A DNA stretch of 64,000 nt from NCBI GenBank assembly GCA_000004985.1, contig GG738866.1; one strand, written 5' to 3'. The notes below the pieces were generated by a model. That model saw only the letters and a list, made by a program, of their open reading frames with translations, made no database searches and was not told the origin of the DNA. A program made the position numbers and the translations under genes. Origin of the DNA: Naegleria gruberi (Eukaryota). Within the stretch, counting starts at the first letter, position 1; the number at the start of each line of letters is the position of its first letter. Of the stretch, positions 28,850 to 59,707 are shown one piece after another.

Positions 28850-31800
28850 TCATTCTTGTGCTCTGATTGCAGAAATTATTGCCTGATTCAGATCGTCTTT
28901 AGAAATTGGCTTGTTGAGGCACGAATCAATAGAGTCCATATTATTAAACTTGTCCATTAGGGCATCAGCCGTTAAGAGAATAATTTTGACCTTATCACCA
29001 TTTGGCAAGGATCGAATCTCATTTGCTGCGTCAATTCCATTAATGATGGGCATGTGAAGATCCGTTACAATTATAGGGTGATACTCCTTCCTGAAGGCCT
29101 CAATCAACTCGAAACCATTGGCACTTGTTGTGATATTTTTGAATCCACCTTTTTGTAATAGTTTTTTAAGTACAGAAAGATTGATAGGATTGTCCTCAGC
29201 AAGTAATATCTTAGTTTCAAAGATATCAATGCAACCTGTAACGGTGACGGAACTCGTGTTTTCCGTAGTGTTGGTTGTTGTGGTCGTAGTGCTTGTAGTA
29301 ATGGATCCCGTAGAATCTTGTAGAGAATGTTTTGGCGAGGCAGTAGTACTGCTCTTTGATTGTCTCTTCTTCATCATGTACAATTCCTTATGGAGGAGGT
29401 GAGTTTTTTGAATTTCGCTATCAATATTATTTAGAGCATTTGGTATGGTGCCCAAATCATCACTCTTCTTAATGTGAGAGTCGAGCAAAATGGTACTGGC
29501 ACCAGAAGATGAGGTCATACTCTCAGTACTCATCGATTGATTCACAATTGGATTTGTTCTGAGGATTTCTTCAATTTGTTTGAGGGAATTCTTCTTCTTT
29601 TTATCAGGAAGTTGGAATGGAATTGAAATGCAAAATGTAGTACCATGATTTGGTGATGGTTCACAAAGGGTTCTATAGCTAATGCCACCTTTCATGTTGA
29701 TAATAATCTTTCTAAGAATGGTCAATCCAAGGCCTGTGCCAATCACACTACCATCACCATTGTGATTGTGACTGGAGAAGGGTTTGAAGAGTAATTTTTG
29801 AATATCCTTCTGAATACCACATCCATGATCGATAACCTTGAAAACAACAGTCTTGATGGTTGGAGTTTCTTGTTGGAGGAGTGTTTGTGCTGATGATTCA
29901 GTACTGGTGGTACTTGTTGGCTCAATGGATAGATCCTTCCTCTTGACTACTACAATTTCCTTAGCGCTTGATCTTCCATCATCAATGATATCTTCTGGAT
30001 TATCATCCTCGAGTACTTCAACTGCGAGGGTAACAACTTGATTTCTCGAAGAAGCCTTAATTGAGTTGGTTAATAAATTGATAAGAACTTGTTGCAAACG
30101 AACACTCTCTCCCAAAACATAGGACGGAAGGAATTTGCTCGTCACAAAATCAATGGTCACATCAAAGTTAGAAGCATACGAGCTGGCAATGCTTCTCACA
30201 TGTTGTAAACAATCGAAGAGGGAAAAGACAGTCTTGTGGTTTTCAACCTTTTCTTCATTAGTTGTATTTTTACCAAGCATTGAATTGGTGGCAATTTCCA
30301 TGTTTGTCTTTTCAAGTTTTGAATATTGTAAAATATCTTCAATCAGGGTTAACAAGATTGAGGAACAACTTCCAATAGTTTTGATGTAATTAATTTGTTC
30401 AGCATTTAGAGTTGTATCCAATAAGAGTTCAATGCTTCCAGAAATACTCATCTATATTTTTGCATTCAGCAGTGATATATTTGAAATATATTGTTAAATA
30501 TATGATTAGTTTCAAAGGTAGAAAAATATTTGAATCGGGTTATAAAGTTTAAACATACCAATGGAGATCTAAACTCATGAGAAATGGAACTGACAAGTGC
30601 ATTCTTGGAACGATTAGCTTCCTTCAGTTTGCTTGTCATTAACTTCATAGTATTGAGTCTGTTCATTAACTTGTAACTCACCGAATTGAGCATAAAGTTC
30701 AAAACAGTAAGCAAGCAAAAAGTACCAAATGCTTCAACATATCGATTATGGACCACTGACAAAATGATGGCAATACCCACCGAAACAATGTGTTGTGAGA
30801 GGATAACCCACATGATAGCCTCATATGAGTGTACCCTGCAATCCACAAGTGCATTCTGAAGAATAATGTATGAATAATTGTGCACAGTGCTCGAGAGGAA
30901 TCCAATCATTAGCCATCCAACAGTATAATCCTTTGTGCACAACAAAAGTCTAAGGAAGAACACTGCAATATTCACTACAATCATAACTTTGCAAGTGTAG
31001 ACTTCCAACAACCGTTGTTTCTTTGCTGCCAAATAGGAAGCATCTACAGGTGTTCCACTTGAGGAAGAAGAGGATGCTCTCGTGGTGGTGGAGGATGTCG
31101 ACGATGAGCCAACACTTCCAAATCTCCAAAAATCACTTGATGAATAGAATGGAACAGTGTTTGGTTCCTTTTGTCCTTCAGATGTTGATGATGATGGGGG
31201 TAGGGGTGTTGTGAGTGGAATTACACTCTGATCAGAATTGCCACCAACAATATCTTCATGTTCTACAATTTCTCCTAGTGTGGCTGCATCCCTGGATAGA
31301 TGTTTTATGAGCCAAACAACCAATCGTTGTTGTACCAAATTTCTAACATATTTAAAATTGATAACAATGGCAATAATGCATAAAAAGCTCATGCTAATTG
31401 GATAGTCGGTCGAGTAGACAATCAAATAAGCATAACAAAGGAAAAGACAAATCGGAAGGAAGATTTGGTGCAACTTTTCATTCAAGATCATAGCCGAATC
31501 ACCTTGCATAAAGCTTGTATTATTTGATGATTGATTGAGTTGTGGTGAAGTTGCAGAAGGTGGTTCTGTTGGCGAGCCAAAAATACTATTTCTTCTGTCT
31601 TCAATGTTTGCATTGTTACTAATTGCAGGATTATCAGAAACAGACACTCGAACCTTTTTTGATGAAGTTTCTGTTGTTGGTACATTTGTATTATTTCCAG
31701 AGGATTGATAGGTTGATGTTGTTGTAGTTGAAGGGGTGGTAGAAGTATGTACATTGTTAGTAGAAGAAGAATTGTAGTGAGGTGATGTAAAATTAGAGGC

Positions 31801-32409
31801 TGATAAAGAGGAAGCCAGTTCGTCAGCATTGATGGTTGCTCCTGTTGTTGTATCAGGAGAGGATTTTCCAGAACTTGATAAACTCTCATTAGAAGAACAA
31901 GTTGATGAAGTGGAAAGGCTATCATTTCCCGAATCCTTTCTATTGGTATTAATACTTGTTGTTGATGTTTCCACTGTTGGTGAATTTCCTCCAACTAATT
32001 GTGAGGAAGTAGAAGAAGTGTGGCTAATGTGATGATGTTGTATCATGTCTGCTGTTGTGAGTGTAGTTGCACCACCTTCCACTATCGAGGAGGCAACAGA
32101 TTGATCACTGGGCATGATACGATTATTGTTACTTGCTACTTGTGCAGCTCCACTCATCTGGGTGTTTTTCTTTAGTTTTGCATCTATTTGAAGGGTTTCA
32201 AGGAAGTCGTCTTTATGCTTCAACATGTTCTCTTTTGGAGAAAGTTCGTTCAAGGCAAATTTGTTATCGGAATGTACAGTTGAGGGTTTTGTAATATTAA
32301 TTTTTTCTGTCGATTGTAAGTCCCTCATAATGATGAGTTGTTGCTTTCCAATTTGAGGTACAACTAGTGGTGTTATTTTCTTGGGTTGAGTTGCTTGATT
32401 ATTAACCAT
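28850..32409 (-). CDS. Hybrid sensor histidine kinase (multi-TM N-terminal region, HisKA, HATPase_c, C-terminal receiver domain), 2 exons
   Basis: Exons (minus) 32409..30559 and 30451..28850; intron 30452..30558 (107 nt, GTATGT...TATAG, phase 0). The splice rebuilds the H-box: '...SISHEFRSPL|MSISGSIELLLDTTLNAEQ...IEDILQYSKLE'. N-box 'LINLLTNSIK', G1 'VIDHGCGI', G2 'GTGLGLTI'. Receiver domain 'KILLAEDNPINLSVLKKLL...IVTDLHMPIINGIDAANEIR...KIILLTADA'. The N-terminal ~300 aa are Ser/Thr/Asn-rich, followed by 5-6 hydrophobic helices. Confidence 0.85.
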
Positions 32410-35578: not shown

Positions 35579-37542
35579 ATGCAGCAAAATCGAAAGAATA
35601 GTAGGCAAGATCCAATTACATTGGAAAGGGTATACTTCTCTCCGGTATCATTGCAAAGTGATACTGAAAAACCATCATTATTCGAAAAAACTATTCGAAA
35701 GGAAAATCGTATTCATAATTTTTTCCTTAGTATTCGCATGAGTATTTGTACTTTCAATTTTATCATCTTTTTCATACTTGTTATAGTTTGTACATTAACT
35801 TTTGCTTTTTCCTTTCGCGATTCCTTTCGAATAGTTGAGAAGAAACAATCTGATGATTATTCGAAACAAACCATCAACGCTTTTCGAGATGAATTCTTAA
35901 ATCTTAATGACAAAATAGCCAACTATGCAATATGGGACAATATATACGAAATGGTCCATTCATCAAATGCTGCCAATCAAGTTTCTCTCTTCTTCCAAAC
36001 TTACTATCCCTGTTATTTCATGGAGAGAATGTCATTGAATTATATTGCAATGTATTATCCGAATGGTACCCTACTACATTACAAATCATGTTGGAATTTG
36101 GACGAAATTAATGGACTGATTGATGAATTAATTCATTTAGATTCGTTTTATTTAAGGAATTGGAATGATTCTTCAATGAGAGTGAATTCAATTTTGATAC
36201 CCAAACAGAAAATCAACAAGAAAACTTTCGAGTTGGAAATTCTTCCGCCAATTCAATTTAAAAATCATGCAAATCTTACGTATGAGGAAATTCTATTAAT
36301 TTCTGGAACCCCAATTCAAACTTTGAATACAAGTATGGCAGATGGGTTTATTATTTATGGAAGATATTTGGAAAGGGATGTTTTGAATGAAATTGCATTG
36401 AGAACTGGTCATTGCTTTACTGTTTATAATATGGATGATTTGACAGATGTGTCACAACTCAAAATTGATATGGATTTACAAAATGTGAATGGATTGAATG
36501 ATTCCCAAGTAGTATTTGAGTATTTAGAGAATGCCAATTATCATAATTTTGAATCTACTTTGAATGAATATTCATCTTTTTTTGATAGACACGAAATAGA
36601 AAGTTCAAGTTTTCTTACCAAAGTTTCACAAGTTTATTCATATGAAGATAGAACATGTCCTTCATACTTTGGAGTTTCAAATCCATCTACATCATCTGTT
36701 GGAACAAGATTAGTTAACTTTCTCTTATTCAGAGATTTTAAAAACAAGGCAGTAATGGTTGTGAGAATTGATGATGAGCGAAGGAATGAATCGATAATTA
36801 TTGGAGGATCCGCTTCAATCTATGTCTTCTTTGCACTTCTTTCCACAATCTTGAGTTTAGCATTGCAGGGATTTTTTGAAATTGGTATTATTCTAAGGGT
36901 TTCATCCATCCAAAAAATAATTAAGAAAGTCACACAAGACAATGACCCAACACTAAGAATACCCCCTCCAAAACACCAACTCCACGAAAAAGATGAAATT
37001 GGACAATTAGAAATCAACCTAAACGAAATGCTTCGAGCATTAGAATTGGTGCAACACAAACTCTCAAAAGATAACGAAATGATGAAAACAATTTTGGAGA
37101 GAATTACTGTAGAGGGAGAGAAATGTAAGGCAGTGATGAATAGTATTCAGGATTTTATATTTATTGTGGAGTGTGAGAGTGGAAAGTTGATTAGTTCGAA
37201 TGAAACATTTGAAAGAAAGGTTTCCAATGGTTCAAAAAATGTTTTGTGAATCAAATTATTTGTAATGAGAAGGATTTCATATCATTGGAAGAATCATTGC
37301 TAACTTTGGAATATTTATCTCAAAATCAGAATTGTGAAAGATATTTGGCCATACTCATTACGAATCCACTTGCTGAGAATGATAATCCATGGGATGACGA
37401 AACAATTCGAATAAGAAATGACATTCGTTCCAAGCACAACATTCCCATCACCTTATCAGTTGCCAAATCAAGAATTGTGTTATCGAAAGATACCATTGGA
37501 GATGCCTTTATCATTCTCGCTAAACCTCTCTTGGCGGTTTAA
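35579..37542 (+). CDS. Membrane sensor protein: TM - ~330-aa extracytoplasmic domain - TM - HAMP - PAS; no obvious output domain. The reading frame breaks near 37210-37330, from an intron or a frameshift.
   Basis: ORF 35579..37249 has TM1 'ICTFNFIIFFILVIVCTLTFAF' and TM2 'SASIYVFFALLSTILSLALQGFF'. HAMP-like 'DEIGQLEINLNEMLRALELV'. PAS start 'MMKTILERITVEGEKCKAVMNSIQDFIFIVECESGKLISSNETFERK'. ORF 37246..37542 starts with GTG and continues PAS-like ('...NCERYLAILIT...IPITLSVAKSRIVLSKDTIGDAFIIL') in another frame. A weak-donor intron 37241..37329 (GTTTTG...ATCAG, 89 nt) would join them in frame; a +1 frameshift is the alternative. Confidence 0.55.
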
Positions 37543-37888: not shown

Positions 37889-40644
37889 ATGAAGAATAAG
37901 GTAATTCCACAAGGTGAGGATAATACTCATCAACAAACACCTTCATCATCCACTTCATCAACAACACGAATGGCACTCCCAAACAAAACCTCCTCTAATA
38001 GCAGTATTGTTGTTGGGGGAGTGTCTCCTGTTGCCACATCTCCAGTAATGACCACCACCAACACCAACAACAAAACGACAAAACAAGATTCTTCCCAATC
38101 ATTCTCTATACAGGCAAGTGGGAAGGAGAGTGGTAAGGATTTAAAGGCCAGTTATCAAAGTTATCATTTTCATCCTAATCATGAGGATGAAAACGCCTCA
38201 ACCACCTCACATATGATGGAAATAGCCTATGGTGGAGGAATGTGTTTCAGATCAATAAGTTGCTGTTTGGTGGGGATTATATCTTCGTTGGTGATATTGT
38301 CGGTAGTTACATTGACTAGTATTTGGATATCAACTACTGTTCCAACATTAGCTGTGATGAGTTCGCAATTGAGAGTTGAGCAATTTTCAACAGTTGTAAA
38401 TAATATTAATCAAACGATACAGAATTTGGTCATTGGTATGTTTTTACTTTACCTTAATATACAAATAATACTTTTTCTAATTATAATTTAATATCTTGAT
38501 GGTATTTTTTATAGTATCTGAAACAACGAAAAGACTGTTAACAGAAGATTTTAATTTTTCAGATCCCTCCCTCATTGAAAAGACAATGTATAATTTGTAT
38601 AAGAGTGAAATGGCTCTAGGGCGATCTGAAATTACAATAACGCTGTATATTGGTGATACAGTGGGAAATTGTTGGGGGATTTATAGATCTGGTGATTCTG
38701 TCTTTTATCTAGATGTGAACAAACAACAGGGGCAGAAAATGTACCTTTGTGAAGATGTACAACACTCGGATTATTGCAAGAGAAATCTTGTGAATGCAAC
38801 TGTTGAACTGCCACCATTTGATCTTTCTCCATTGGTCACACATTCTCATGAGCATAGTGGAAGACCGTCATTTTCATTGAGTTATGTAGATTCGACAGTA
38901 CCTAGTGTGACTTTCCTTACACTCCTTAACACTTTCAATTCATCAAGAGTGAGCAATTTCAATTTCAATTATTATTTTGGTTATGATGTGACTTCAGCTT
39001 CAATTTCTTCTTTTCTAGAGAAACAAACCAAATCTGTTGATGGATCAGTTGCGTTTGTAATTGAAACTAAAACAGAATTCTTGATAGCATGTAGTGATAC
39101 TGCCCATCCCCTTGTTGAAGTTAATGAATCAAATGGAGAGGTGATCAGAAAAACTGGATTAACTTTTGCAGATGAATTAACATTCAAAATCGCTCAATTC
39201 ATGTATCATAGTGTAAATAATAATCTGAGCTCCCTAACTTGCGGAAAGGTTCTGTTGGCAGAGGGATCGTTGTACTATATCAATGCTATGAGAGTTTGTT
39301 CAGAACAGGATTTGGACTGGATTATCGTTTGGGCAACACCTCAGAATAGATATACTCAGAGTACAGTAATTGCATTGACAGTGTCTGGAATTTCAAGTAT
39401 TATCATTATCAGTGTTGCTCTCATTGTTGGATTTTTAGCATCCAAGTCAATTGTAAAACCATTTCACAAATTTATGCAGGCAGCAGAATCAATATCAAAT
39501 ATGGAATTGGAATCCTTTTCATTCTCAGATACTCGTATTATTGAAGTGGAAAAGCTGCAAAAAATGTTTGTCATGTTGGCAAATCGATTGAAAACCTACA
39601 GAAGTTTCCTACCTTCTAACGTCTTACTTGAAATTGATAATGGTGGAAAGGATATTAATGCCAATTCAAGTTATCACACCAAAGAATCTCATTTGGGATC
39701 ATTCCTAGTTGGAGGACATAGTAGAGGTTCAAGTTCTTTCAGCTTTAAGAAGAACAAACTGGCTTTAAGATTGGAAAAGAGACAAGTGACAATGTGTGGA
39801 ATTTATATTGAAGGATTTGATTATTGCATACATCATTTGGATTATCACGATATTATTATCATGTTGAGTGATTTATTTGACTCGATTCATAAAACTAGTC
39901 TGACTTCAGCTGCAGAAGTTGGACAATTCGATAACGAGCTCATCACTTTGGCCTGGAACTCCCTGGCTGATCAACCAAACCACATCTTTAGAGGAATTTC
40001 AAATTGTCACATTCTTAGAGATAAACTCTTGAAATCCCTTGAAAAATGGAATGCCAGAGAAGATATTGATCAAGCTCTCAATATTCGAATGTCGCTCCAC
40101 ACTCAAGAATCAATTGTTGGAAATATAGGTACGAGAGAAGCAAAGAGTCATGCCTCCATAGGAAGTTGCCATGCCAACATGAAGAAACTTTCCAAAACTT
40201 GTTCCAGCTTCTCAATTTCACTTCTGGTAACTGAACCAATTCACAAGGAATCTTCCGAATCATTCCTTACAAGATATATCGACACTATTCGATTGTTCCG
40301 TCAAAATGACTGCAGTATTAATATGAGTGAGGAAAAAACAGAAGATGTTGCAGTGTACGAAATTGGAAATAGAAATGATGTTAAAATGGATGGTAAGTAA
40401 TGCAAATATTATTGGCTTAACTAAACTATTTAAATTTCTAATAGAATGGATGTATGAATTGAAGGAAAGGGGAGAGAAAACCAAATGGGATCGATACATT
40501 CTAGGATGTCAATATTTCCACAATGAAGATTACAAAGAAGCTTTCGAATTTTTCGAAGATTATGAAACAATTTTCGAGGAAAGATATGGTCGCTCTGATT
40601 TACCAACTCTAAATCTAATGGCCAAGTGTAAATTGCATTTATAA
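37889..40644 (+). CDS. Receptor-type protein: N-terminal TM, ~380-aa extracytoplasmic domain, TM, HAMP-like linker, class III nucleotidyl-cyclase homology domain with a substituted metal-binding residue (probable pseudo-cyclase); 3 exons
   Basis: Exons 37889..38435, 38515..40392, 40445..40644. Intron 1 is 38436..38514 (GTATGT...TTATAG, phase 1); intron 2 is 40393..40444 (GTAAGT...CTAATAG, phase 1). Both join three track ORFs in frame. TMs 'CCLVGIISSLVILSVVTLTSIWI' and 'VIALTVSGISSIIIISVALIVGFLA'. The cyclase-homology domain spans about 39760..40250: 'RQVTMCGIYIEGFDYC' aligns to 'VTxLFADIVGFT' with D replaced by Y; 'GQFDNELITLAW' aligns to 'IGDxYMA'; 'RMSLHTQESIVGNIGTREAKSHASIGSCHANMKKL' aligns to 'GxHxGxVxAGVIGxxRxxYxxxGxxVNxAxR'. 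Confidence 0.75.
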
Positions 40645-40676
40645 ACAGATAATTTCTTAGTGTTTCAGTAGTTCAT

Positions 40677-41810
40677 ATGTTTTCAAAAATTTGGAAGGCT
40701 TCTCTGACCTGTCATGATCTAAATATAAAGATTACAAAAAAAATGGGCAACAAGCAACCTTCCAACACTCCAGCCTTGCCTGCTGGTTATTCAAAGTCTT
40801 CATCATCGTGTACACCATCGAAGAGTAGTGGCCACTCTTTAATTACTGATTATTTTTCTACCAATTGTAAATTAATTAGAATTAGTGATGCTGATCGGAA
40901 ACAAGAATTGGAAAGTATGAATAGAAACAAAATTAAATATTCAAGTAAATTGGAAAATAATTTACCAGAGGAAATGATCATTCACATTTTGGATTATTTA
41001 CCCATTAGAAATTTAGTATTATTGCAACAAGTTTCGAAAAATTTCAAAATCTATTGGACTCTGTTTCCAGAATTGTGGACTAAATTTTCTGCTCCAATGA
41101 TGTACATGCCAGACAATAACGGAAATTGGACTAGCAGTTATATTCTCTTTCAACAATTCAAATTCAAATTGATGAATTCTTTTGTGAAGGATAAGAAAAC
41201 TCCTAATTTAGAAGGAAAAATTTCAAGAATTGCAGTGTTGGGTGATGATAAAATTGGAAAGACAATCCTTCATCATAGAGCATTTGGAGGTGAACCATTT
41301 TCAGAGATTTACACTTGGACCATTGGTGTCGAGTTTTTCAATCGAATTAATACTCAAAATTTATTGAGAATGCATTCGTGGGATTCTGGTGGTAATGAAC
41401 GATTTAGGGAAATTGTTTGGGGATATCACAAGACTGTAAAGAGTCACTTTTATTGTTTTGATTTGAATAATCACAATTCTTTTGAGAATGCCAAGAAATT
41501 ATTCTACTCTTGGAAGGAAAGATTTTTACAAACTGAAACTGTCGAGTCATTTTTGCAAAGTAATGAATCGTGCATTCTTCTACTGGGATTGAAATCAGAT
41601 TTGGAGCATAAAGTGACTCGAGATGAAATTCATGAATTTTTGGAAGATATTGAGCCACTTAAAAACAAGACACTTCACACCAGCAAAGTTCAATATTTTG
41701 AATTGAGCTCTAAATTAGATTCTGAATCGGATCTGCTTTTCCCATTTATTTATGCATGTTCGGTGGCGATTGAAAGGCCTCTTTTTTCTTCTTTTGGAGG
41801 TTCTAAATAG
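40677..41810 (+). CDS. F-box domain fused to a Rab/Ras-like small GTPase domain
   Basis: 377-aa ORF. An internal ATG at 40743 is an alternative start. F-box 'LPEEMIIHILDYLPIRNLVLLQQVSKNFKIYWTLFPELW'. GTPase motifs: G1 'VLGDDKIGKT', switch I 'TWTIGVEFF', G3 'WDSGGNERF', G4 'GLKSDL', G5 'ELSSK'. Starts only 32 nt after the stop of the upstream gene. Confidence 0.75.
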   Translation: MFSKIWKASLTCHDLNIKITKKMGNKQPSNTPALPAGYSKSSSSCTPSKSSGHSLITDYFSTNCKLIRISDADRKQELESMNRNKIKYSSKLENNLPEEMIIHILDYLPIRNLVLLQQVSKNFKIYWTLFPELWTKFSAPMMYMPDNNGNWTSSYILFQQFKFKLMNSFVKDKKTPNLEGKISRIAVLGDDKIGKTILHHRAFGGEPFSEIYTWTIGVEFFNRINTQNLLRMHSWDSGGNERFREIVWGYHKTVKSHFYCFDLNNHNSFENAKKLFYSWKERFLQTETVESFLQSNESCILLLGLKSDLEHKVTRDEIHEFLEDIEPLKNKTLHTSKVQYFELSSKLDSESDLLFPFIYACSVAIERPLFSSFGGSK

Positions 41811-46231: not shown

Positions 46232-49200
46232 TTACTTTTTCTTCTTTCTACTCTTTTGTTCTTCATCAATTTGTCTCTTTGAGGCCAATGTCTTTTTATC
46301 GGCATACTGTATAAGAATGTCAATTATTTCTGATTGCGAAATTTCGAGACAATTCTTTCCTTGTGAATTTCTCAAACTCATATCTGTGTTTGGAGCCAGA
46401 GATTTGACCAAATTCTTGAAATCGGCTCTGATGGCAGCAAAGATTGGAGTTTCATGGTTGTCGTCTAATAAGTTCAATACTTTCTTTTTGGAAGCAGCAG
46501 AAAGTTTGGAGAGTAATGAAACAATAAGAGAATGCTTGTATGAGTGCAATTCTCTCTTTTCCACTCGGAAATAAACTGGCAAGGAACTATCACACAATAA
46601 ATGCATAATTGTTTTGCCTGATTTCTTATCCATTCTCGACAAGAATTGAAGAATTTCCTTCTCTGTTGTCAACTTTTCTTGAATTTTTTTAAGGGGATAA
46701 CCTTTCAACGCACAAACCTCCAACATGCTTAATTGATAAGTAACAGGCTCCTGAACGCAACTGTACATTTTCCCAATATACTTGATGGTAGAAGGATTGC
46801 TTGTGTTCCCGTAGTTATTAAGAAATTCAGTCAATTCTCTATTTTCATCTCTATTCACAAGTTGTACGATACACTTTTGTTCCAACAAATCTGAATCAAT
46901 TAAATCCTCAACTGGCTCTAATTCTGAAAAGTCACCAAAAGGAGTAAAATTGAAAATATAGCCTGAAATCAATTTCTTATCATCTCCTACTAGATTTTTT
47001 TCTTTAAGCTTACGCTTCAAAGACTCTTCTAAAATGTGATATTGCAAGTTTGCAGAAGCCAGTTCATTGATAGTTGACTCGCATTCGTCTAATGGTTTAC
47101 CTAAATAATGTATAATTTTTTTAGCCACCCTGTAATGACCATATTTCACTGCTAACTTCCAAGAATTTAATTTGGTAATACTGCTCTCCTCCTCATATAA
47201 CTTCGAATTGACACAATACTCATTATAAATTCCATTCATTGCTTGAAGAGCATAGTAATTTATCATTCCTTCATTTTCGTCTGTATAATTCCCATAATCC
47301 ACTGACCCATTCACTATGTACCTCTTTCTTGTAATCAAGCCAAGATCAGCAATAGTTTGAGTTTCAATACCAAGCATTAAATATGTATGTACAGGAGTTA
47401 GATTAACTACTCCAAGTGTTTCAGAACTCATTGTAATCTCAATCTCAAGACACTTTTTTAAAACCTCCTTACTCTTGTTCAAAATAGAAAAATAATTAAT
47501 GGAGCGTGCAAAAGCATAATACAAAAGTAATTTGGCTCCATTGATGTATGGTTCCCCCTTTTTTAACTCGAAAAATTCTGATTTGAACGGAACATTGGAA
47601 AGGGCATATTCCAAATCACAACCCCGTTCAACAAGCAAACTACTTAGCCGCTCAGAATCAAGGAGAGATTTGCAGAGTAGAGTTTGCCCATTTGCATCTC
47701 TCGAATTTAACTCCTCTAATTTTAATGATGCAAGCAATGTACTACTCCACATACTGGAATTCACAACAAACAATGCTGGTATTTCATCATTATTCTTGTG
47801 GCTGATATCAACGCCCAAAGTTGTAATAGCATAATCAGTAAGTGTGCTTGGTGCACGTGACAAAATATGGAGCAGATTACCACCATTAGAGCTTCTAAAG
47901 TCTTTCAATTCTTTGCCATTTCTTTGATATATTTTGTTGAAAAACTTTAAAAATTCCATACTGTTATAAGAACCAAATTGTCTTAATCGTGAGGCCCAAT
48001 TTTCTATTGCATTTAATCCATTAGAATTTGTTTTTTCTAAAGTTTCCAATTCAATATTCTCGAAGAGTGACAAACTTCCAGCACTATAATCTGAGATATA
48101 ACTTAAAATAGATCCTTCTGAACAGGTATAATTAAGGTCCACTCCAAGGTCTATTAAAGATTTGACTATATCGAATGGAATTGGGGAATAACTGTATACA
48201 TTCGACTTGAATAAACAGTAAAGAAGATTCATGTTTGCAGCATTACCCTCTATTATTCCATTACTATTTCCCAAATTTAACAATGTAGGCTCTCTTTCTA
48301 AAGCCTTTTTAAGTAATGTTATTTTCCGATTATTCACCAGGCATGTCAACGGGTTATATGCGCCTTCGATTATTAGTGGTATTTCTTTGTTCTCTATAAC
48401 TAGATTCAACAGATGATCATTTCCATTTTGAAATATTCTATTTAACATGTAACGGTCCATTTTGTATCTCAAATGAGGTTCTAGATCAGTATTAGCAACA
48501 AATTTTTTGTAAAATTCGTCAAACAATAAATCACTACGCGCCAATTCTGATTCAAATTCTGATATCTGGACAGGAATGTCTTGAGCCTTTGCATATTCAA
48601 TTATTACATCATATAGATCGTCATTTTTCAACTCTACAAGCTTGAATGGGTGCAATAGATTCCAATTAATATTTTCCTCATAAACCAGCATATCCCAAAA
48701 CTCTAGCACATTATCATATTCAGTGATAGGGTTATCAGCCTTTACCTTTTTCAATCGTGTCAGAAGTTGTTCTGATGTATTATGATACTTCAAATTAATT
48801 GTTTCTAGAGAGCTCATGGGAGTTTCTTTCTTATTGTGCAATCCATTCAAGTAGTTAATTATTTTGTTCTTGTCTGTGCCAAAATAGATGTAACCATTTT
48901 CAGAAGTTCCATAAATATTGACAGTCTTTAGATCTGAAGAGTGTTTGTTATTCTTGTGACAGTCCACTAAAACATCCAAAAATTCAAAAAGCCCAGTTGC
49001 CAAAGCAACACATTCCAAATCAAAAAATTCAAATGTTTCAATCTTGTTAGGTTGTTGAAAAAAGGCCTCCCAACCACTTTGACAAACTCTCAACTTGGTA
49101 AAATTTGGAAAATAACTAGCCATCTGTTTCAACTTGGTACTTTTAAACTTTTCAATTTGATTCTTTTCTCTGGTCAACAAATCAAGAACTTTCACCTTTG

Positions 49201-49543
49201 GAAAGAACACCTTCTCCAACTTGTTCTTCCAAAATCTATTCGTTGCTCTCATATTCAACAAATCAGGATAAACCGGTACAAAATCCAAAATATATTGCAT
49301 CAAATCTTCATTCACCTCTTGTCCCCACAAATTAAAGTAAAATTCTTGATCTTGTTGCGAATCGTCGTTGATTTCCATCACCGTTGGAGCAACAACATCT
49401 TTACCACCTCTCTTAGAGGAGGTTGATTTTGTTTGTTTCCTCTTCTTTTGCACTTTGACATTATCACCCGATGATGATGTTGATGATTTTGATTTCTTCG
49501 AAGTCTTCTTGTCCTCTTCTGTTCTTGCGCGGCGTGGAGGCAT
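46232..49543 (-). CDS. Large protein with basic Ser/Lys-rich N-terminus, F-box-like motif and degenerate ankyrin-like repeats
   Basis: 1103-aa uninterrupted ORF. N-terminal 'PPRRARTEEDKKTSKKSKSS...KKRKQTK' is NLS-like. F-box-like 'DLMQYILDFVPVYPDLLNMRATNRFWKNKL'. Ankyrin-like stretches, e.g. 'NGGNLLHILSRAPSTLTDYAITTLGVDISHKNNDEIPALF' and 'DNHETPIFAAIRADFKNLVKSLAPNTDMSLRNSQGKNCLEIS'. Confidence 0.55.
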   Translation of the reverse strand: MPPRRARTEEDKKTSKKSKSSTSSSGDNVKVQKKRKQTKSTSSKRGGKDVVAPTVMEINDDSQQDQEFYFNLWGQEVNEDLMQYILDFVPVYPDLLNMRATNRFWKNKLEKVFFPKVKVLDLLTREKNQIEKFKSTKLKQMASYFPNFTKLRVCQSGWEAFFQQPNKIETFEFFDLECVALATGLFEFLDVLVDCHKNNKHSSDLKTVNIYGTSENGYIYFGTDKNKIINYLNGLHNKKETPMSSLETINLKYHNTSEQLLTRLKKVKADNPITEYDNVLEFWDMLVYEENINWNLLHPFKLVELKNDDLYDVIIEYAKAQDIPVQISEFESELARSDLLFDEFYKKFVANTDLEPHLRYKMDRYMLNRIFQNGNDHLLNLVIENKEIPLIIEGAYNPLTCLVNNRKITLLKKALEREPTLLNLGNSNGIIEGNAANMNLLYCLFKSNVYSYSPIPFDIVKSLIDLGVDLNYTCSEGSILSYISDYSAGSLSLFENIELETLEKTNSNGLNAIENWASRLRQFGSYNSMEFLKFFNKIYQRNGKELKDFRSSNGGNLLHILSRAPSTLTDYAITTLGVDISHKNNDEIPALFVVNSSMWSSTLLASLKLEELNSRDANGQTLLCKSLLDSERLSSLLVERGCDLEYALSNVPFKSEFFELKKGEPYINGAKLLLYYAFARSINYFSILNKSKEVLKKCLEIEITMSSETLGVVNLTPVHTYLMLGIETQTIADLGLITRKRYIVNGSVDYGNYTDENEGMINYYALQAMNGIYNEYCVNSKLYEEESSITKLNSWKLAVKYGHYRVAKKIIHYLGKPLDECESTINELASANLQYHILEESLKRKLKEKNLVGDDKKLISGYIFNFTPFGDFSELEPVEDLIDSDLLEQKCIVQLVNRDENRELTEFLNNYGNTSNPSTIKYIGKMYSCVQEPVTYQLSMLEVCALKGYPLKKIQEKLTTEKEILQFLSRMDKKSGKTIMHLLCDSSLPVYFRVEKRELHSYKHSLIVSLLSKLSAASKKKVLNLLDDNHETPIFAAIRADFKNLVKSLAPNTDMSLRNSQGKNCLEISQSEIIDILIQYADKKTLASKRQIDEEQKSRKKKK

Positions 49544-49976
49544 TTTTTTTTATCTTTGTGGGGGGATAAGTGGAAATTGTAAACTATGAAATTATTAAGA
49601 TAGTATCAACAACTTGCAGGTAAAAATTGTAAAGTATTGAAATGAACAAAGGACTCTAACTATTAAGAATGTGAACATTCGGCTTGTACAAGTTGATTAA
49701 AATTTTATGTAGTGATATGAGAATGTCAAGTATAGTATTATATAGTATTATACAAAGAGTCTTTTTGTTGACTTGTGAAAAAATTTGTCGATTTGGGACT
49801 GTGAGATTTGTTATCTGAGGTTGTACTTTTGAAAAAATCTAATTTATTTGTGATGGTTTCAAATTCAATACTAGCCGTTACACAATTTGGCGCCACTTCT
49901 TTTTAACTGCCAGTTATCAATTATAAATTCAAAAAAAAATAACTTTACTAGGCCACTCACACTTCCACTAGGAAAA

Positions 49977-51830
49977 ATGGTTAGATCCTTCTTTCAAAAA
50001 CTCTTTAGAACAGAATCTTCCTCGACAGCTTCCAATGTAACGCTGACATCAGCTCTTGGCCTGCCACCTGTCGAAGAAGAACCAAGACGTGCAACAATTA
50101 GTGCATCTACATCAAATCTGGATACTTCCTCACCTAACAAACGTAAAAGAACAGCTCTAGCTGATGATACTTTGCATGACATGTTAGAATCATATTCACC
50201 AAACTCACAAAAGAGAGCCACTACACCTGACAGATCAAAACAATTGAAATTAACACCACCTTCACAGAAAGGTAGTGTTGCTACACCTATATCTGATAAG
50301 ACACCAGTTAAAGGATTACATGCCAGAAGTCAATCATTAATCATGACACCTAAATCTGACATGAGCTCTCCAAGATTACCTTCTTCACCATTAACAAGTA
50401 ACAAGACAATCTCTTCCAGTTTTGATGTTTTCCCACAAGTATACAAAGGTTTGGAACCTTTTTGTATAGAAAATTCACTTCCAAAATTGGGAAAAAAATT
50501 CAATGAAATGATTTACAAACAAACTGAGAGTTGGGTTTCGAATACTAATGATGATGCTCAATTGAAAGAAGCATCTTCTAATATGAAATTTACTAGAGAT
50601 TTGTTAAGAATGTCACATAGTATGACAATTGATGCTTTTGAACCTGTCAGACAACAATCTGTCAGAAATAATAATCCAACAAGTGGAAAATTTAAAACTA
50701 TTCATAATTTTGCAACTATTGAGGATCCTACTCTAAGAATGATTGATATCATTAACACTGTTCATGACATGTTTGAAATGACAACTGGCATTGCCAAACC
50801 TTCCCATTTAGGTAAATTCTGCACACTTGCTTGTTATCAAGATTTGACCAATACATTCACCTCTTGCAACGTTCAACCTGAAGATTTGGTAAATGTTTTC
50901 AGAACTTTGTGCGTTAAGAGAAATGAAAATTCAATTCCACATCCAATGCTCAAGGTTTTGTCACTTGTCGATCAATCCATTGTGGTTGGTACACTTGGAC
51001 AAGTTGCTCAATGTATCATGACTTTGAAAAATTCTATTCAACAATTGCCTAATAAGGAGTCCACAATTACAATTGACCAATTTAAGGATATCAGAGGAAC
51101 TTGGAAAGTTTCATTCCGTGACTATGGACCAACCTCTAGTAATGGTGGTGGCTTAAGCGTTGTCCATCAACGTAGTGATTGTATGCTCACAAAGAATAAT
51201 CCAAAACTCTTCCCTGCATCTGTGTCCACACCTTCCAAAAATGGCATTCCTCAACCAAGACAAGAATTTGTTGAATTGTTCCATATTACATGGCAAGTAG
51301 AACTCTTCATGGATTCGAGAGAAACTCCAAAATACATCAAGGCAATTGAAGTTTCCTTGAAGGAAATTGATTGGACTTGTTCAGGAAGTCGATCATTGGA
51401 GAATTCAGTTTTTTCATTCTTGACTCCAGAGCAAAGATTTGAAGCTGAGAGAATTTGTAGATTATTCTTCTCTGTGAAGAATGAAATGAAACGTGCTACT
51501 GGTGGTATTATTGAAGATTCAAGTCGTTTCACTCAACCTGTAAAAGTCAGAGTTGATAATATTCAACCTTACATTCCACCAGTTGCTTTGACAAGTAGTA
51601 CTAGCTCTGCAAATTTAATGTCACCACGTAGAGGTTCTGTTGCTCATGATCGTTCAGTGAGTAATGATGAAAACATGTTGAGTCCAAGAAAAAGAGCTAC
51701 CGATTCCATTCGATTGGGTTATAATTGGTTCACTAAATTATTCTCATCCAATTCAAATTCTATTGAGGATGTTTTGGCTGAATATGTTCATCCAGCCAGT
51801 GCAAGTACCAGTAATTCTCTGAGTAAGTAA
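49977..51830 (+). CDS. Hypothetical Ser-rich protein
   Basis: The ORF track starts at a TTG (49887). The first ATG is at 49977 ('MVRSFFQKLF...'). Ser/Thr/Pro-rich N-terminal third, then ordinary-composition sequence; no motif recognised. Confidence 0.5.
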   Translation: MVRSFFQKLFRTESSSTASNVTLTSALGLPPVEEEPRRATISASTSNLDTSSPNKRKRTALADDTLHDMLESYSPNSQKRATTPDRSKQLKLTPPSQKGSVATPISDKTPVKGLHARSQSLIMTPKSDMSSPRLPSSPLTSNKTISSSFDVFPQVYKGLEPFCIENSLPKLGKKFNEMIYKQTESWVSNTNDDAQLKEASSNMKFTRDLLRMSHSMTIDAFEPVRQQSVRNNNPTSGKFKTIHNFATIEDPTLRMIDIINTVHDMFEMTTGIAKPSHLGKFCTLACYQDLTNTFTSCNVQPEDLVNVFRTLCVKRNENSIPHPMLKVLSLVDQSIVVGTLGQVAQCIMTLKNSIQQLPNKESTITIDQFKDIRGTWKVSFRDYGPTSSNGGGLSVVHQRSDCMLTKNNPKLFPASVSTPSKNGIPQPRQEFVELFHITWQVELFMDSRETPKYIKAIEVSLKEIDWTCSGSRSLENSVFSFLTPEQRFEAERICRLFFSVKNEMKRATGGIIEDSSRFTQPVKVRVDNIQPYIPPVALTSSTSSANLMSPRRGSVAHDRSVSNDENMLSPRKRATDSIRLGYNWFTKLFSSNSNSIEDVLAEYVHPASASTSNSLSK

Positions 51831-57850: not shown

Positions 57851-59707
57851 ATGAGTACAAGCACGAACAGAACCCATCCTGTTATTCAGCAGCCACCATC
57901 TGATCAAAAAAGTAGTTCTAGACCACCATCAAAACAACCAGGTGGATCAAGAGGAGGTAAACAAACAGTCTATAGCAGCAGTAACAGTACTTCTAGCACC
58001 AACACAACAAGTAGCGCCAATACAACCAATAATTCTACTAACAATGTGGCCAGTAACGGTTCAGGTAGCAATAACAACAGCAGAAATAGAAGATACTATA
58101 ACAACAATACAACCAATAACAATTCTAACTCCTCAGCAAGTAATTTAAACAACAACAATAATAATAATCAAAATAGAAACAACCAAAACACCAACAATAA
58201 TCAAAGTAATACCAACAATAATAACAACAATAGAGGAGGAAGATTCAATTCAAAGCAATCATACAACCATCATCGTAATCTCCTGGAGAATATGAACAAA
58301 GTTAATGAGAATCTCCACCAAGAAATACCTCAACAATCAACAACCACTCCATCCACCTCCGTCCCTACCACTTCTCCAACTACCGCTCCAAAATTGTCAT
58401 ATTCAGCAATTGTTGGTGGACAAACAGTCACTGACGATATCAACGAACTAGATACTCATAAACCATCCAACTTGGCTATTGCTAAAGAATTGGTTCAAGA
58501 CGAATTATGGAAAGATAAGCTTAGTTTGCCACCTAGAGATGACCGTATGCAAACTGAAGATGTTACACTTACCAAAGGTTCTGACTTTGAAGAATTCGGC
58601 TTAAAGAGAGAATTATTGATGGGTATCTTTGAAAAGGGTTTCGAAAGACCATCTCCCATCCAAGAACAAACTGTCCCATTAGCTCTTTTCGGTAGAGACA
58701 TTTTGGCCAGAGCCAAGAACGGTACTGGTAAGACTGCTGCTTTCATTATTCCTTGTCTTGAAAGAGTTGATACTTCAAAGAATCAAATCCAAATTTTGAT
58801 TTTGGTTCCAACAAGAGAATTGGCTTTGCAAACAAGTCATGTTTGTAAAGAAATCGGAAAGTACCTCAACGTTGAAGTCATGGTTACCACAGGTGGTACT
58901 TCTTTGAAAGATGATATTGTTAGACTTTACAAGCCTGTTCACATTCTCGTAGGTACACCAGGTAGAATTATCGATCTTGCTAGCAAGGGTGTTGCTAACT
59001 TGAACAATGTTTCCATGTTGGTCATGGATGAAGCTGACAAACTTTTGAGTCCTGAATTTGTTCCATTGATTGAAAAACTTATTTCATTCGTTCCTCCATC
59101 TCGTCAAATCCTCTTATTCTCTGCTACCTTCCCAATTACTGTTAAGGACTTTAGAGACAAATGGCTCACCAAACCATACGAAATCAATTTGATGGACGAG
59201 TTAACACTCAAAGGTGTAACCCAATACTATGCCTTTGTCGAAGAAAGACAAAAAGTTCACTGTCTTAACACTTTATTCTCTAAGCTACAAATCAACCAAT
59301 CTATTATCTTCTGTAACTCTGTTAACAGAGTTGAATTGTTGGCCAAGAAGATTACTGAACTTGGTTATAGTTGTTTCTACATCCATGCCAAGATGCCACA
59401 AGATTTGAGAAACCGTGTCTTCCACGACTTTAGAAATGGTGCTTGCAGAAACTTGGTGTCTTCCGACTTGTTCACCAGAGGTATCGATATTCAAGCTGTT
59501 AACGTTGTTATCAACTTTGACTTCCCAAAGAACTCTGAAACCTATCTCCACAGAATCGGTAGATCTGGTAGATATGGTCACTTGGGTTTGGCAATTAACT
59601 TTGTTACCTATGAAGACAGATTTAACTTGTACAAGATTGAACAAGAATTGGGTACTGAAATTAAGCCAATACCTCCAACTATTGACAAGAATTTGTATGT
59701 CGCTTAA
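57851..59707 (+). CDS. DDX6: DEAD-box ATP-dependent RNA helicase of the DDX6/Dhh1/Me31B family with a ~230-aa Asn/Ser/Thr-rich N-terminal extension
   Basis: 618-aa single-exon ORF. Q-motif '[28 protein letters not shown]', I '[11 protein letters not shown]', Ia 'PTRELALQ', II '[10 protein letters not shown]', III 'SAT', VI '[42 protein letters not shown]'. The helicase core is near-identical in motif content to the Dhh1/DDX6 subfamily. Confidence 0.9.

What the first reader, a model, noticed from the sequence alone, without database searches (positions are those of the whole stretch)
39760..40250. Class III cyclase homology domain with substituted metal-binding Asp and transition-state Arg (candidate pseudo-cyclase)
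Hand alignment to the class III consensus puts Tyr where the first metal-binding Asp sits ('VTMCGIYIEGFD' against 'VTxLFADIVGFT'). The hallmark 'GxHxGxVxAGVIG' is kept as 'LHTQESIVGNIG', and Asn is kept in 'HAN'. The final Arg of 'VNxAxR' appears to be Lys. That pattern is typical of regulatory or heterodimerising pseudo-cyclase halves rather than an active homodimeric cyclase.
Basis: inference. Interest (0 to 1): 0.6.

Follow-up and report, generated by a model that had tools for sequence, protein, structure and literature searches.

The report
Dead adenylate-cyclase domain in Naegleria receptor
This stretch of the Naegleria gruberi genome encodes a real but almost certainly catalytically dead copy of the cAMP-making cyclase domain, inside a bacterial-style membrane receptor; it belongs to a previously undescribed family of such dead-cyclase receptors in Naegleria and its relatives.

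Summary
Window 39756-40373 (+) encodes a class III cyclase homology domain (CHD) inside an 874-aa, three-exon gene. My model is identical to N. gruberi XP_002677490.1 / D2VE73, annotated "predicted protein". Pfam PF00211 does not detect the domain. A profile of its relatives hits only solved class III cyclases (E 1.6e-9). hhalign to canonical bacterial cyclases gives 100% probability (E 2e-48). An AlphaFold model (pLDDT 92.9) matches only CHD structures (CyaB, E 4.8e-13).

All six canonical catalytic positions are substituted: Y613, E657 (metal Asp), Q653, A729 (substrate Lys/Thr), A736, K740 (transition-state Asn/Arg). Because both half-sites are lost, this is a fully dead pseudo-cyclase, not a complementing heterodimer half.

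The trait is family-wide. At least 46 sequence clusters (50% identity) from Naegleria and Willaertia never have Asp at the first metal site or Lys at the substrate site. The protein keeps a bacterial receptor layout: dCache ectodomain, HAMP-like segment, CHD and a TPR-like tail. A 40-residue Ser-rich insert breaks the normally fixed-length link into the CHD.

The likely role is non-catalytic signalling or dimerisation; this part is inferred. New variant of a known kind; moderate interest.

The parts
37889..40644 (+). Whole gene. Exons 37889..38435, 38515..40392 and 40445..40644 (stop included). Introns 38436..38514 (gtatg...tatag) and 40393..40444 (gtaagt...aatag). The 874-aa product is N. gruberi NAEGRDRAFT_67177 / XP_002677490.1 / D2VE73, annotated 'predicted protein'.
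   Evidence: Splice sites read from the sequence. Assembled. The exact sequence was found in the protein collection. The exon 2/3 junction recreates the family-conserved motif DEWMYEL.
38246..38332 (+). Transmembrane helix 1 (about aa 120-148), after a low-complexity Ser/Thr/Asn-rich cytosolic N-terminus (aa 1-117).
   Evidence: Kyte-Doolittle hydropathy segments at 117-152.
38336..39362 (+). Extracellular double-PDC (dCache-type) sensor domain, aa ~150-465. It spans intron 1.
   Evidence: AF2 model pLDDT 93.2. The top 50 Foldseek PDB hits are all dCache ligand-binding domains of chemoreceptors or histidine kinases (PctD 7prq 4.3e-8, Tlp3 4xmr, TlpQ 6fu4, vpHK1S-Z8 3lid). Pfam itself finds nothing here.
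39363..39443 (+). Transmembrane helix 2 (about aa 466-492).
   Evidence: Hydropathy segment 463-499. It is aligned to the TM segment of the bacterial relatives by hhalign.
39444..39635 (+). HAMP-like segment ending in a cyclase-transducer-element-like motif (aa 493-556; ...VKPFHKF...LKTYRSFLPSNVLLEI).
   Evidence: hhalign aligns it to the post-TM linker and the [FY][IVL]P motif of canonical bacterial HAMP-cyclases. Pfam HAMP does not hit this protein, so this is HAMP-like only.
39636..39755 (+). Ser/Gly/Lys-rich low-complexity insert of 40 aa (aa 557-596, DNGGKD...SSSFSFKKN). It lies between the transducer motif and the CHD.
   Evidence: The distance from the motif to the CHD is 18-22 aa in 22 canonical relatives. 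It is roughly 46-84 aa in most of the 25 family members that the motif search matched (median 65; a few values of 8, 12 and 230 look like spurious pattern matches). The query itself was not among those matched; its 40-aa insert and 51-residue spacing were measured directly on the sequence. The first 10 residues of the AF2 segment have pLDDT 53. Composition.
39756..40373 (+). Degenerate class III cyclase homology domain (pseudo-CHD), aa 597-802.
   Evidence: The secondary-structure order is beta-alpha-alpha-beta-beta-alpha-beta-beta-alpha-beta-alpha-beta-beta.
39804..39806 (+). Y613, in the column of the first metal-binding Asp.
   Evidence: Family 0/46 Asp (Y16, H10, L6, K6, F4...). Canonical relatives 44/45 Asp.
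39924..39938 (+). Q653 in the column of the adenine-specifying Lys, and E657 in the column of the second metal Asp (peptide QFDNE).
   Evidence: Lys: family 0/46, canonical 42/45. Asp2: family D 22, N 8, E 7, G 7, Q 2; canonical 45/45.
40152..40187 (+). A729 (substrate Thr/Asp column), A736 (transition-state Asn column), N737 (family-conserved Asn one residue out of register) and K740 (transition-state Arg column).
   Evidence: Gap-free alignment from G732 to E756 in both MAFFT and hhalign. Family counts: Thr 26/46, Asn 2/46, Asn at +1 42/46, Arg 7/46. Canonical counts: 41/45, 43/45, 45/45.
40445..40641 (+). C-terminal helical TPR-like tail (aa 809-874, exon 3).
   Evidence: Weak Pfam TPR_2 / ANAPC3 hits (E 0.04 / 0.009). 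hhalign aligns it to the C-terminal extension of the canonical bacterial relatives (consensus).

Best explanation
The region encodes the cyclase homology domain of a receptor-type pseudo-cyclase.

Shown here: the gene product has the full layout of bacterial class IIIb receptor adenylate cyclases. In order, these are TM1, a dCache ectodomain, TM2, a HAMP-like segment with a transducer motif, the CHD and a TPR-like tail. The CHD keeps its fold and keeps the residues around the beta4-beta5 tongue (GN.G, K/R, F/Y). It has lost every canonical catalytic residue: both metal Asp (Y613, E657), the substrate Lys/Thr pair (Q653, A729), and the transition-state Asn/Arg pair (A736, K740). It has also lost the conserved Arg at column 725 (an Ala here, variable in the family) and the VKGK turn. 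The normally fixed-length connection from the transducer motif to the CHD is broken by a 40-aa Ser-rich insert. The same losses occur across a heterolobosean family found in N. gruberi, N. lovaniensis, N. fowleri and Willaertia magna.

Inferred: the protein cannot make cAMP or cGMP, either as a homodimer or as a complementing half. The CHD is probably retained as a dimerising, conformation-relaying scaffold. Ligand binding at the dCache domain would then be read out through protein-protein contacts of the pseudo-CHD and TPR-like tail, possibly tuned by phosphorylation of the Ser-rich linker, rather than through second-messenger synthesis.
For: - CHD homology and fold.
- Catalytic columns in the query and in 46 family members against 45 canonical relatives.
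- Loss of further canonical-only positions (F611, F617/T618, E622, G656, G709, G713, R725, D733, E742, K746, G789).
- Positions conserved in both groups (L600, L633, H672, G718, N719, G721, R769, E798). This argues that the fold and interface are kept.
- Architecture shared with bacterial relatives carrying dCache_1 or CHASE2 plus Guanylate_cyc.
- Linker insertion.
- The CTE and linker length matter for regulating class III cyclases: PMC5995499.
- Not a decaying gene: the 874-aa ORF is intact with conserved splice junctions. Family-invariant residues are N664, G718, N719, G721, N737 and R769. An environmental N. gruberi-like contig (98.8% nucleotide identity) shows 14 synonymous against 6 nonsynonymous differences in this gene.
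- Taxonomic spread of the family.
Against: - No biochemical data exist.
- No model coordinates were available, so I could not check whether N737 and K740 still point into the old active-site cleft.
- About half of the family keeps the second metal Asp and the substrate Thr. This hints at some residual constraint on the old pocket, perhaps nucleotide binding.
- Dimerisation was not modelled.
- The proposed protein-protein output has no identified partner.
- Within the CHD itself the strain comparison has only one difference (L645Q), so purifying selection is shown for the gene, not for this domain.
- The canonical set used for comparison was selected by similarity to the query. The 106-bit score is therefore inflated.
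Confidence: 0.75

Rival explanations
1. Complementing heterodimer half. The domain pairs with a second CHD that supplies the missing residues, giving one active and one regulatory site, as in mammalian C1/C2 or soluble guanylate cyclase alpha/beta.
For: CHDs act as dimers, and half-degenerate partners are well known (established knowledge of class III cyclases). The tongue region is conserved. Naegleria encodes at least 81 cyclases that could be partners (PMC9928731).
Against: Both complementary residue sets are lost in the same chain. In a heterodimer, site A would lack Lys/Thr/Asn/Arg and site B would lack the metal Asp pair. The first metal Asp and the Lys are absent in 46/46 family members. 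No CHD partner lies in the window.
Confidence: 0.06
2. Dominant-negative or allosteric regulator. The dead CHD heterodimerises with active cyclase paralogues and silences or tunes them in response to the dCache ligand.
For: The fold and tongue residues are preserved. There is a large cyclase repertoire in the same genome (PMC9928731). A fully dead partner would cripple both sites of a heterodimer (inference from the class III mechanism).
Against: The nearest canonical relatives among the 150 best hits appear to be bacterial, not Naegleria, cyclases. Only P0049 and P0055 were actually looked up; the remaining hits were classed as canonical from their motifs alone, so their source is assumed. 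This gives no sign of a co-evolving active paralogue of the same subtype. Each family member has its own sensor domain, which fits autonomous receptors better. Nothing here was tested directly.
Confidence: 0.13
3. The vestigial pocket has a new job. It may bind a nucleotide or another small ligand without turnover, or catalyse non-canonical chemistry using family-specific invariant residues (N656, N664, N719, K726, N737, R769).
For: Several polar residues are invariant or nearly so in the family, including Asn at +1 of the old transition-state Asn (42/46) and Asn replacing the Gly before the second metal Asp. The second metal Asp or Glu is kept in 29/46 and Thr in 26/46.
Against: Most family-conserved residues are also conserved in canonical relatives, so they are probably structural. 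The first metal ligand, the base-contacting Lys and the phosphate-binding Arg/KGK are gone, which makes ATP or GTP binding unlikely.
Confidence: 0.1
4. Non-functional relic: a gene or domain decaying after loss of activity.
For: All catalytic residues are lost. A disordered insert is present. The environmental contig carries a 1-nt indel at window 38774.
Against: The reference has an intact 874-aa ORF with two correctly spliced introns. The AF2 model is high-confidence. The family is conserved across two genera with invariant residues. Differences between strains are 14 synonymous against 6 nonsynonymous. The indel may be an assembly error.
Confidence: 0.03

Closest known systems
Bacterial class IIIb receptor adenylate cyclases with dCache_1 or CHASE2 sensor, HAMP/CTE, CHD and a C-terminal TPR-like extension (the canonical hits P0049-P0150; solved CHDs: P. 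aeruginosa CyaB 3r5g, Synechocystis Cya2 2w01)
   Same: The whole domain order is shared. hhalign gives 100% probability over 460 columns, from the ectodomain end through TM2, the HAMP-like segment, the CHD and the tail. The CHD fold is shared (TM 0.71/0.80 to 3r5g), as is the dCache fold. The GN[IV]G tongue motif, H672 and R769 are shared.
   Different: All six catalytic residues are replaced, whereas they are present in 41-45 of 45 relatives. A 40-aa Ser-rich insert sits where the relatives have a fixed 18-22-aa connection. PF00211 scores 109 bits on P0106 and gives nothing on this protein. The host is a eukaryote and the gene has introns.
Half-degenerate CHD pairs: mammalian membrane adenylate cyclase C1/C2 and soluble guanylate cyclase alpha/beta (own knowledge of the class III literature; sGC structures 4ni2 and 3uvj appear among the fold hits)
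   Same: A CHD fold is retained after loss of catalytic residues. The dimer contains a non-catalytic pseudo-site with a regulatory role.
   Different: In those proteins each chain keeps one complete complementary residue set, so the heterodimer has one working site. Here both sets are lost in one chain, so no working site can be assembled.
Heterolobosean paralogues, all annotated 'predicted', 'hypothetical' or by automatic naming: N. gruberi D2VHG7, D2V827, D2V927, D2VB72, D2VHB3; N. lovaniensis XP_044550760, XP_044555078, XP_044542527; N. fowleri XP_044560960, XP_044565730; several Willaertia magna KAL96... proteins
   Same: 25-33% identity over the CHD. Shared motifs are F.L.LE.K.VT, FEN, HEEK, CGN.GT, K.FT and N.L, plus the DEWMYE junction into the TPR-like tail. 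None has Asp at the first metal site or Lys at the substrate site. All carry the Ser-rich linker.
   Different: This member is among the more degenerate. It has E rather than D at the second metal position, Ala rather than Thr at 729, and V rather than C before GNIG. Some paralogues carry NIT rather than dCache sensors, or extra domains such as BTB.

Membership tests
Class III nucleotidyl cyclase catalytic domain (CHD, Pfam PF00211 Guanylate_cyc) | Scores above the Pfam PF00211 gathering threshold (21.9 bits) | tested here: not met
   No PF00211 hit at E<=1 on the ORF or at E<=0.01 on the 222-aa segment. Only 11/46 family members hit, best E 2.9e-4.
Class III nucleotidyl cyclase catalytic domain (CHD, Pfam PF00211 Guanylate_cyc) | Statistically significant homology to bona fide CHDs | tested here: met
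   The family profile against PDB hits only class III cyclases, with E from 1.6e-9 to 3.8e-4. hhalign to canonical relatives gives probability 100%, E 2e-48.
Class III nucleotidyl cyclase catalytic domain (CHD, Pfam PF00211 Guanylate_cyc) | CHD fold (beta-alpha-alpha-beta-beta-alpha-beta core with the beta4-beta5 arm) | tested here: met
   AF2 pLDDT 92.9, pTM 0.88. The top 50 Foldseek PDB hits are all CHDs; 3r5g has E 4.8e-13 and TM 0.71/0.80.
Catalytically competent class III cyclase | Two metal-binding Asp | tested here: not met
   Y613 and E657 occupy the two columns.
Catalytically competent class III cyclase | Substrate-specifying pair (Lys plus Asp/Thr for ATP, Glu plus Cys/Ser for GTP) | tested here: not met
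   Q653 and A729. This is neither the AC nor the GC pattern.
Catalytically competent class III cyclase | Transition-state Asn and Arg on helix alpha4 (N-x-x-x-R) | tested here: not met
   A736 and K740 in the gap-free alignment. The spacing from G732 to E756 is identical to the canonical relatives, so N737 is at +1 rather than in the Asn column.
Catalytically competent class III cyclase | Cyclase activity in vitro | not testable with these tools
   Requires an enzyme assay.
Complementing pseudo-half (C1-like or C2-like CHD) | Retains one complete complementary residue set (both metal Asp, or Lys + Asp/Thr + Asn + Arg) | tested here: not met
   Both sets are incomplete in the same chain. The same holds family-wide for the first metal Asp and the Lys (0/46).
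Complementing pseudo-half (C1-like or C2-like CHD) | A partner CHD with the complementary residues | tested here: inconclusive
   None in the readable 49 kb of the window (hmmsearch of six-frame ORFs with canonical and family HMMs). The rest of the genome could not be searched with these tools.
Bacterial-type dCache/CHASE2-HAMP-CHD receptor cyclase architecture (class IIIb) | Two-TM topology with an extracytoplasmic dCache sensor | tested here: met
   Hydropathy. AF2 pLDDT 93.2 and Foldseek hits to dCache ligand-binding domains.
Bacterial-type dCache/CHASE2-HAMP-CHD receptor cyclase architecture (class IIIb) | Short, fixed-length transducer connection from the [FY][IVL]P motif to CHD strand beta1 | tested here: not met
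   18-22 aa in canonical relatives. In the query the spacing is 51 aa to the family anchor, because of a 40-aa insert (measured directly). It is about 46-84 aa in most of the family.
Heterolobosean degenerate-CHD family (defined here) | Non-acidic residue at the first metal Asp, no substrate Lys, the motifs FxN / CGNxGT-like / N at +1, R769, and a DEWMYE junction into the TPR-like tail | tested here: met
   The query has Y613, Q653, FDN, VGNIGT, N737, R769 and DEWMYEL. phmmer E-values to members run from about 1e-27 down to 1e-12.

The most novel reading that the evidence does not exclude
Naegleria and Willaertia have turned a bacterial-type dCache/NIT-HAMP adenylate cyclase into an expanded family of enzyme-dead receptors. 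The family has at least 46 clusters at 50% identity. It would be the cyclase counterpart of pseudokinase receptors. In this reading the pseudo-CHD has acquired a new, conserved function built on family-invariant polar residues (N656, N664, N719, K726, N737, R769): either ligand or nucleotide sensing, or a dedicated protein-docking surface. Signalling would run through the Ser-rich linker and the TPR-like tail instead of through cAMP.
Probability: 0.15. Interest if true: 0.7.

Novelty: new variant of a known kind. Interest (0 to 1): 0.45.

Why it matters
Degenerate cyclase domains are usually discussed as one half of a working heterodimer. Here a whole lineage-specific receptor family has lost both half-sites and the rigid sensor-to-enzyme coupling, yet keeps the fold, the sensor and the tail, and the gene as a whole looks selectively constrained.

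There are three practical consequences:
- Cyclase counts for Naegleria based on domain hits mix live and dead enzymes, and they also miss members like this one that Pfam cannot see.
- The family offers a natural system for asking what a CHD dimer can do besides catalysis.
- Members occur in N. fowleri, where cAMP and receptor signalling are of drug-target interest. It is useful to know which 'cyclases' there cannot make cAMP.

Tried and rejected
- **Pfam on the ORF and on the CHD segment:** no PF00211 hit. Pfam alone would have wrongly refuted the finding.
- **First word-indexed protein search, full-length protein:** returned only a 99% identical fragment, probably because the candidate list was swamped by the low-complexity N-terminus.
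- **Third word-indexed search, trimmed family alignment:** returned only 2 hits. Orthologues above 50% identity in other Naegleria species therefore could not be listed, and no domain-level dN/dS was possible.
- **Spliced protein sequence:** I used the contiguous exon-2 segment instead.
- **Literature searches** for pseudo-cyclase, inactive cyclase domain, and Naegleria cyclases: nothing describes this family. The only relevant statement is the count of at least 81 cyclases.
- **One-residue loop insertion that would put N737 in the canonical Asn column:** considered and rejected. The G732-to-E756 spacing and the hydrophobic pattern (L741, F748, I752) match the canonical relatives without a gap.
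- **Chance resemblance, and a decaying pseudogene:** both rejected; see the rival explanations.
- **Partner CHD in the window:** none found.
- **Model coordinates:** not retrievable, so no residue-level superposition on a substrate-bound cyclase could be made.
Full report
**What is at the coordinates**

Canonical GT...AG introns flank this ORF. Joining 37889..38435, 38515..40392 and 40445..40644 gives an 874-aa protein. That exact sequence is in the public collection as Naegleria gruberi XP_002677490.1 / EFC44746.1 / UniProt D2VE73, "predicted protein", NAEGRDRAFT_67177.

The window is therefore N. gruberi. Consistent with that, its DEAD-box helicase (57851..59704) is 100% identical to the N. 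gruberi protein, and 81% and 79% identical to those of N. lovaniensis and N. fowleri. The first 14,783 bases of the window are N.

**Is it a cyclase homology domain?**

Pfam says no. There is no PF00211 hit at E<=1 on the ORF, nor on the isolated segment. More sensitive evidence overrides it:

- Single-sequence phmmer against PDB sequences ranks P. aeruginosa CyaB first (E 0.033) and Cya2 fourth (E 1.2). The alignments already place Tyr and Glu on the two metal Asp.
- An exhaustive phmmer search with the exon-2 segment 39726..40391 found 944 proteins at E<=1e-3. The best ~47 are 25-33% identical proteins from N. gruberi, N. lovaniensis, N. fowleri, Willaertia magna and environmental contigs. 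The rest look like canonical bacterial adenylate cyclases. Only two of these (P0049, P0055) were looked up by source; the others were judged from their motifs.
- A profile of the 46-member family (A1) hits only class III cyclases in the PDB: 2w01 1.6e-9, 3r5g 7.4e-9, 6fht 1.5e-8, and 1wc1 and 1wc0.
- hhalign of the family against 45 canonical relatives (A2) gives 100% probability, E 2e-48, over 460 columns.
- AlphaFold2 on the segment with the family alignment gives pLDDT 92.9 and pTM 0.88, with the CHD secondary-structure order.
- All top 50 Foldseek PDB matches are class III cyclase domains. The best is CyaB 3r5g, E 4.8e-13, TM 0.71/0.80.

By the model, the domain spans aa 597-802, which is nt 39756-40373.

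**The catalytic positions**

MAFFT, HMMER and hhalign agree, and there are no gaps around the motifs. The score is inflated, because the canonical set was chosen by similarity to the query.

| Canonical position | This protein | Family (n=46) | Canonical relatives (n=45) |
|---|---|---|---|
| Metal Asp 1 | Y613 | 0 Asp (Y16, H10, L6, K6, F4...) | 44 |
| Adenine-specifying Lys | Q653 | 0 | 42 |
| Metal Asp 2 | E657 | D22, N8, E7, G7, Q2 | 45 |
| Substrate Thr (class IIIb equivalent of Asp) | A729 | 26 | 41 |
| Transition-state Asn | A736 | 2 | 43 |
| Transition-state Arg | K740 | R7, K7 | 45 |

The claim that Asn is kept in "HAN" is not right in register. The Asn (N737, present in 42/46 of the family) sits one residue after the canonical column. 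The spacing from G732 to E756 is identical to that in canonical relatives, so a compensating loop insertion is unlikely.

Other residues conserved only in the canonical group are also gone: F611, F617/T618, E622, G656, G709, G713, R725, D733, E742, K746 and the Gly of the VKGK turn. Residues conserved in both groups are L600, L633, H672, G718, N719, G721, R769 and E798. These include the beta4-beta5 tongue, which in cyclase structures contacts the transducer element and shapes the dimer (PMC5995499).

**The rest of the protein**

- Hydropathy gives two TM segments, about aa 120-148 and 466-492.
- The part between them folds with pLDDT 93.2 into a long helix plus two alpha/beta modules. Its top 50 PDB matches are all dCache ligand-binding domains: PctD, Tlp3, TlpQ, TlpA, Mlp24 and vpHK1S-Z8.
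- After TM2 comes a HAMP-like segment ending in YRSFLPSNVLLEI. hhalign aligns this to the [FY][IVL]P transducer motif of the canonical relatives.
- In 22 canonical relatives that motif lies 18-22 residues before the GGE.R lead-in of the CHD. In most of the 25 family members matched by the motif search, the distance is about 46-84 residues. In the query, a 40-aa stretch rich in Ser, Gly and Lys (aa 557-596) fills it (measured directly).
- The C-terminal exon encodes a TPR-like helical tail that is also present in the bacterial relatives.
- The canonical relatives carry Guanylate_cyc (44/45) with dCache_1 (24) or CHASE2 (17) sensors.

The whole bacterial class IIIb receptor-cyclase layout is therefore conserved. 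The exceptions are the chemistry and the rigid coupling.

**How it most likely works**

Shown: the fold and the sensor architecture are kept, every catalytic residue is lost, the coupling segment is loosened, and the pattern is family-wide.

Inferred from the established two-metal mechanism of class III cyclases: the active sites lie at the dimer interface. One chain supplies the two Asp, and the other supplies Lys, Asp/Thr, Asn and Arg. This protein has neither set. It therefore cannot form an active site as a homodimer, and it cannot complement a partner.

I conclude it is a fully dead pseudo-cyclase. I estimate about 0.9 for the absence of cyclase activity.

The retained tongue and core residues suggest that dimerisation survives. 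The most economical function is then a dCache-regulated, non-catalytic signalling or scaffolding module. Its output would be protein-protein interaction through the pseudo-CHD and the TPR-like tail. The Ser-rich linker may be a phosphorylation target. This part is speculative.

The rivals are dominant-negative pairing with active cyclases, a re-used ligand pocket, complementation, and decay.

Decay is unlikely. The ORF and its introns are intact. The family has invariant residues across two genera. A 98.8%-identical environmental contig differs by 14 synonymous against 6 nonsynonymous changes in this gene. That contig also carries a 1-nt indel at 38774, and only one of the changes falls in the CHD.

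**Comparison with what is known**

The closest characterised relatives are bacterial class IIIb CHDs (CyaB, Cya2). The closest concept is the half-degenerate CHD of mammalian C1/C2 or soluble guanylate cyclase. This protein differs from both: it has lost both half-sites and the fixed transducer connection.

The paralogues are annotated only as predicted or hypothetical proteins, or by automatic naming as "Guanylate cyclase domain-containing". Literature searches found no description of them. A Naegleria pangenome paper simply counts at least 81 cyclases (PMC9928731).

The nearest canonical sequences among the best 150 hits appear to be bacterial rather than Naegleria cyclases. This is compatible with a bacterial origin of the clade, but I did not test it with a phylogeny.

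**Verdict**

I rate it a new variant of a known kind and of moderate interest. Its value lies mainly in exposing an unrecognised, Pfam-invisible family of enzyme-dead dCache receptors in Heterolobosea, including N. fowleri.

Noticed in passing
window 35579-37542 (+): The gene immediately upstream on the same strand encodes a sensor with CHASE4 (E 4.7e-11), a TM segment, a weak HAMP hit and a PAS-like C-terminus (SIQDFIFIVE...AFIILAKP). It seems to end without any output domain. The ORF is split at 37246-37249, probably by a short intron or frame change. So a sensor with no output sits next to a sensor with a dead output.
   Followed up: partly
window 40677-41810 (+): The downstream gene combines an F-box (E 2.7e-7) with a Ras/Roc/Arf-like small GTPase domain (Ras E 1e-16) in one 377-aa ORF. 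This is an unusual domain pairing.
   Followed up: no
window 28850-32409 (-): A hybrid histidine kinase (HisKA, HATPase_c, receiver) is directly preceded by a 647-aa ORF (30466-32409) with no Pfam hit. That ORF may be the sensor part of the same gene.
   Followed up: no
window 1-14783: The first 14,783 bases are a run of N (an assembly gap or masked sequence). Only about 49 kb of the window is readable.
   Followed up: yes
L001 (ENA ERZ929261, PRJEB11402 metagenome contig k127_78694), aligned to window 38498-41366: An environmental contig is 98.8% identical to the N. gruberi reference. It has 33 substitutions and a 1-nt deletion at window 38774, which would break the reading frame in the dCache domain. 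A prokaryotic gene caller split the gene there. This is either an assembly error or a strain with a disrupted copy.
   Followed up: partly
family members P0033/P0289 (N. fowleri XP_044565730) and others in A1: Some paralogues of the dead-CHD family carry a NIT (nitrate/nitrite-sensing) ectodomain instead of dCache (2 of 46, best E 1.1e-30). One carries a BTB domain. The dead output is therefore combined with several different sensors.
   Followed up: no
window 15717-19346 (-), 46232-49543 (-), 49887-51830 (+), 60252-62246 (+): Several long ORFs (1209, 1103, 647 and 664 aa) have no Pfam hit, or only a marginal one (a weak ankyrin hit on the 1103-aa ORF). They were not examined further.
   Followed up: no
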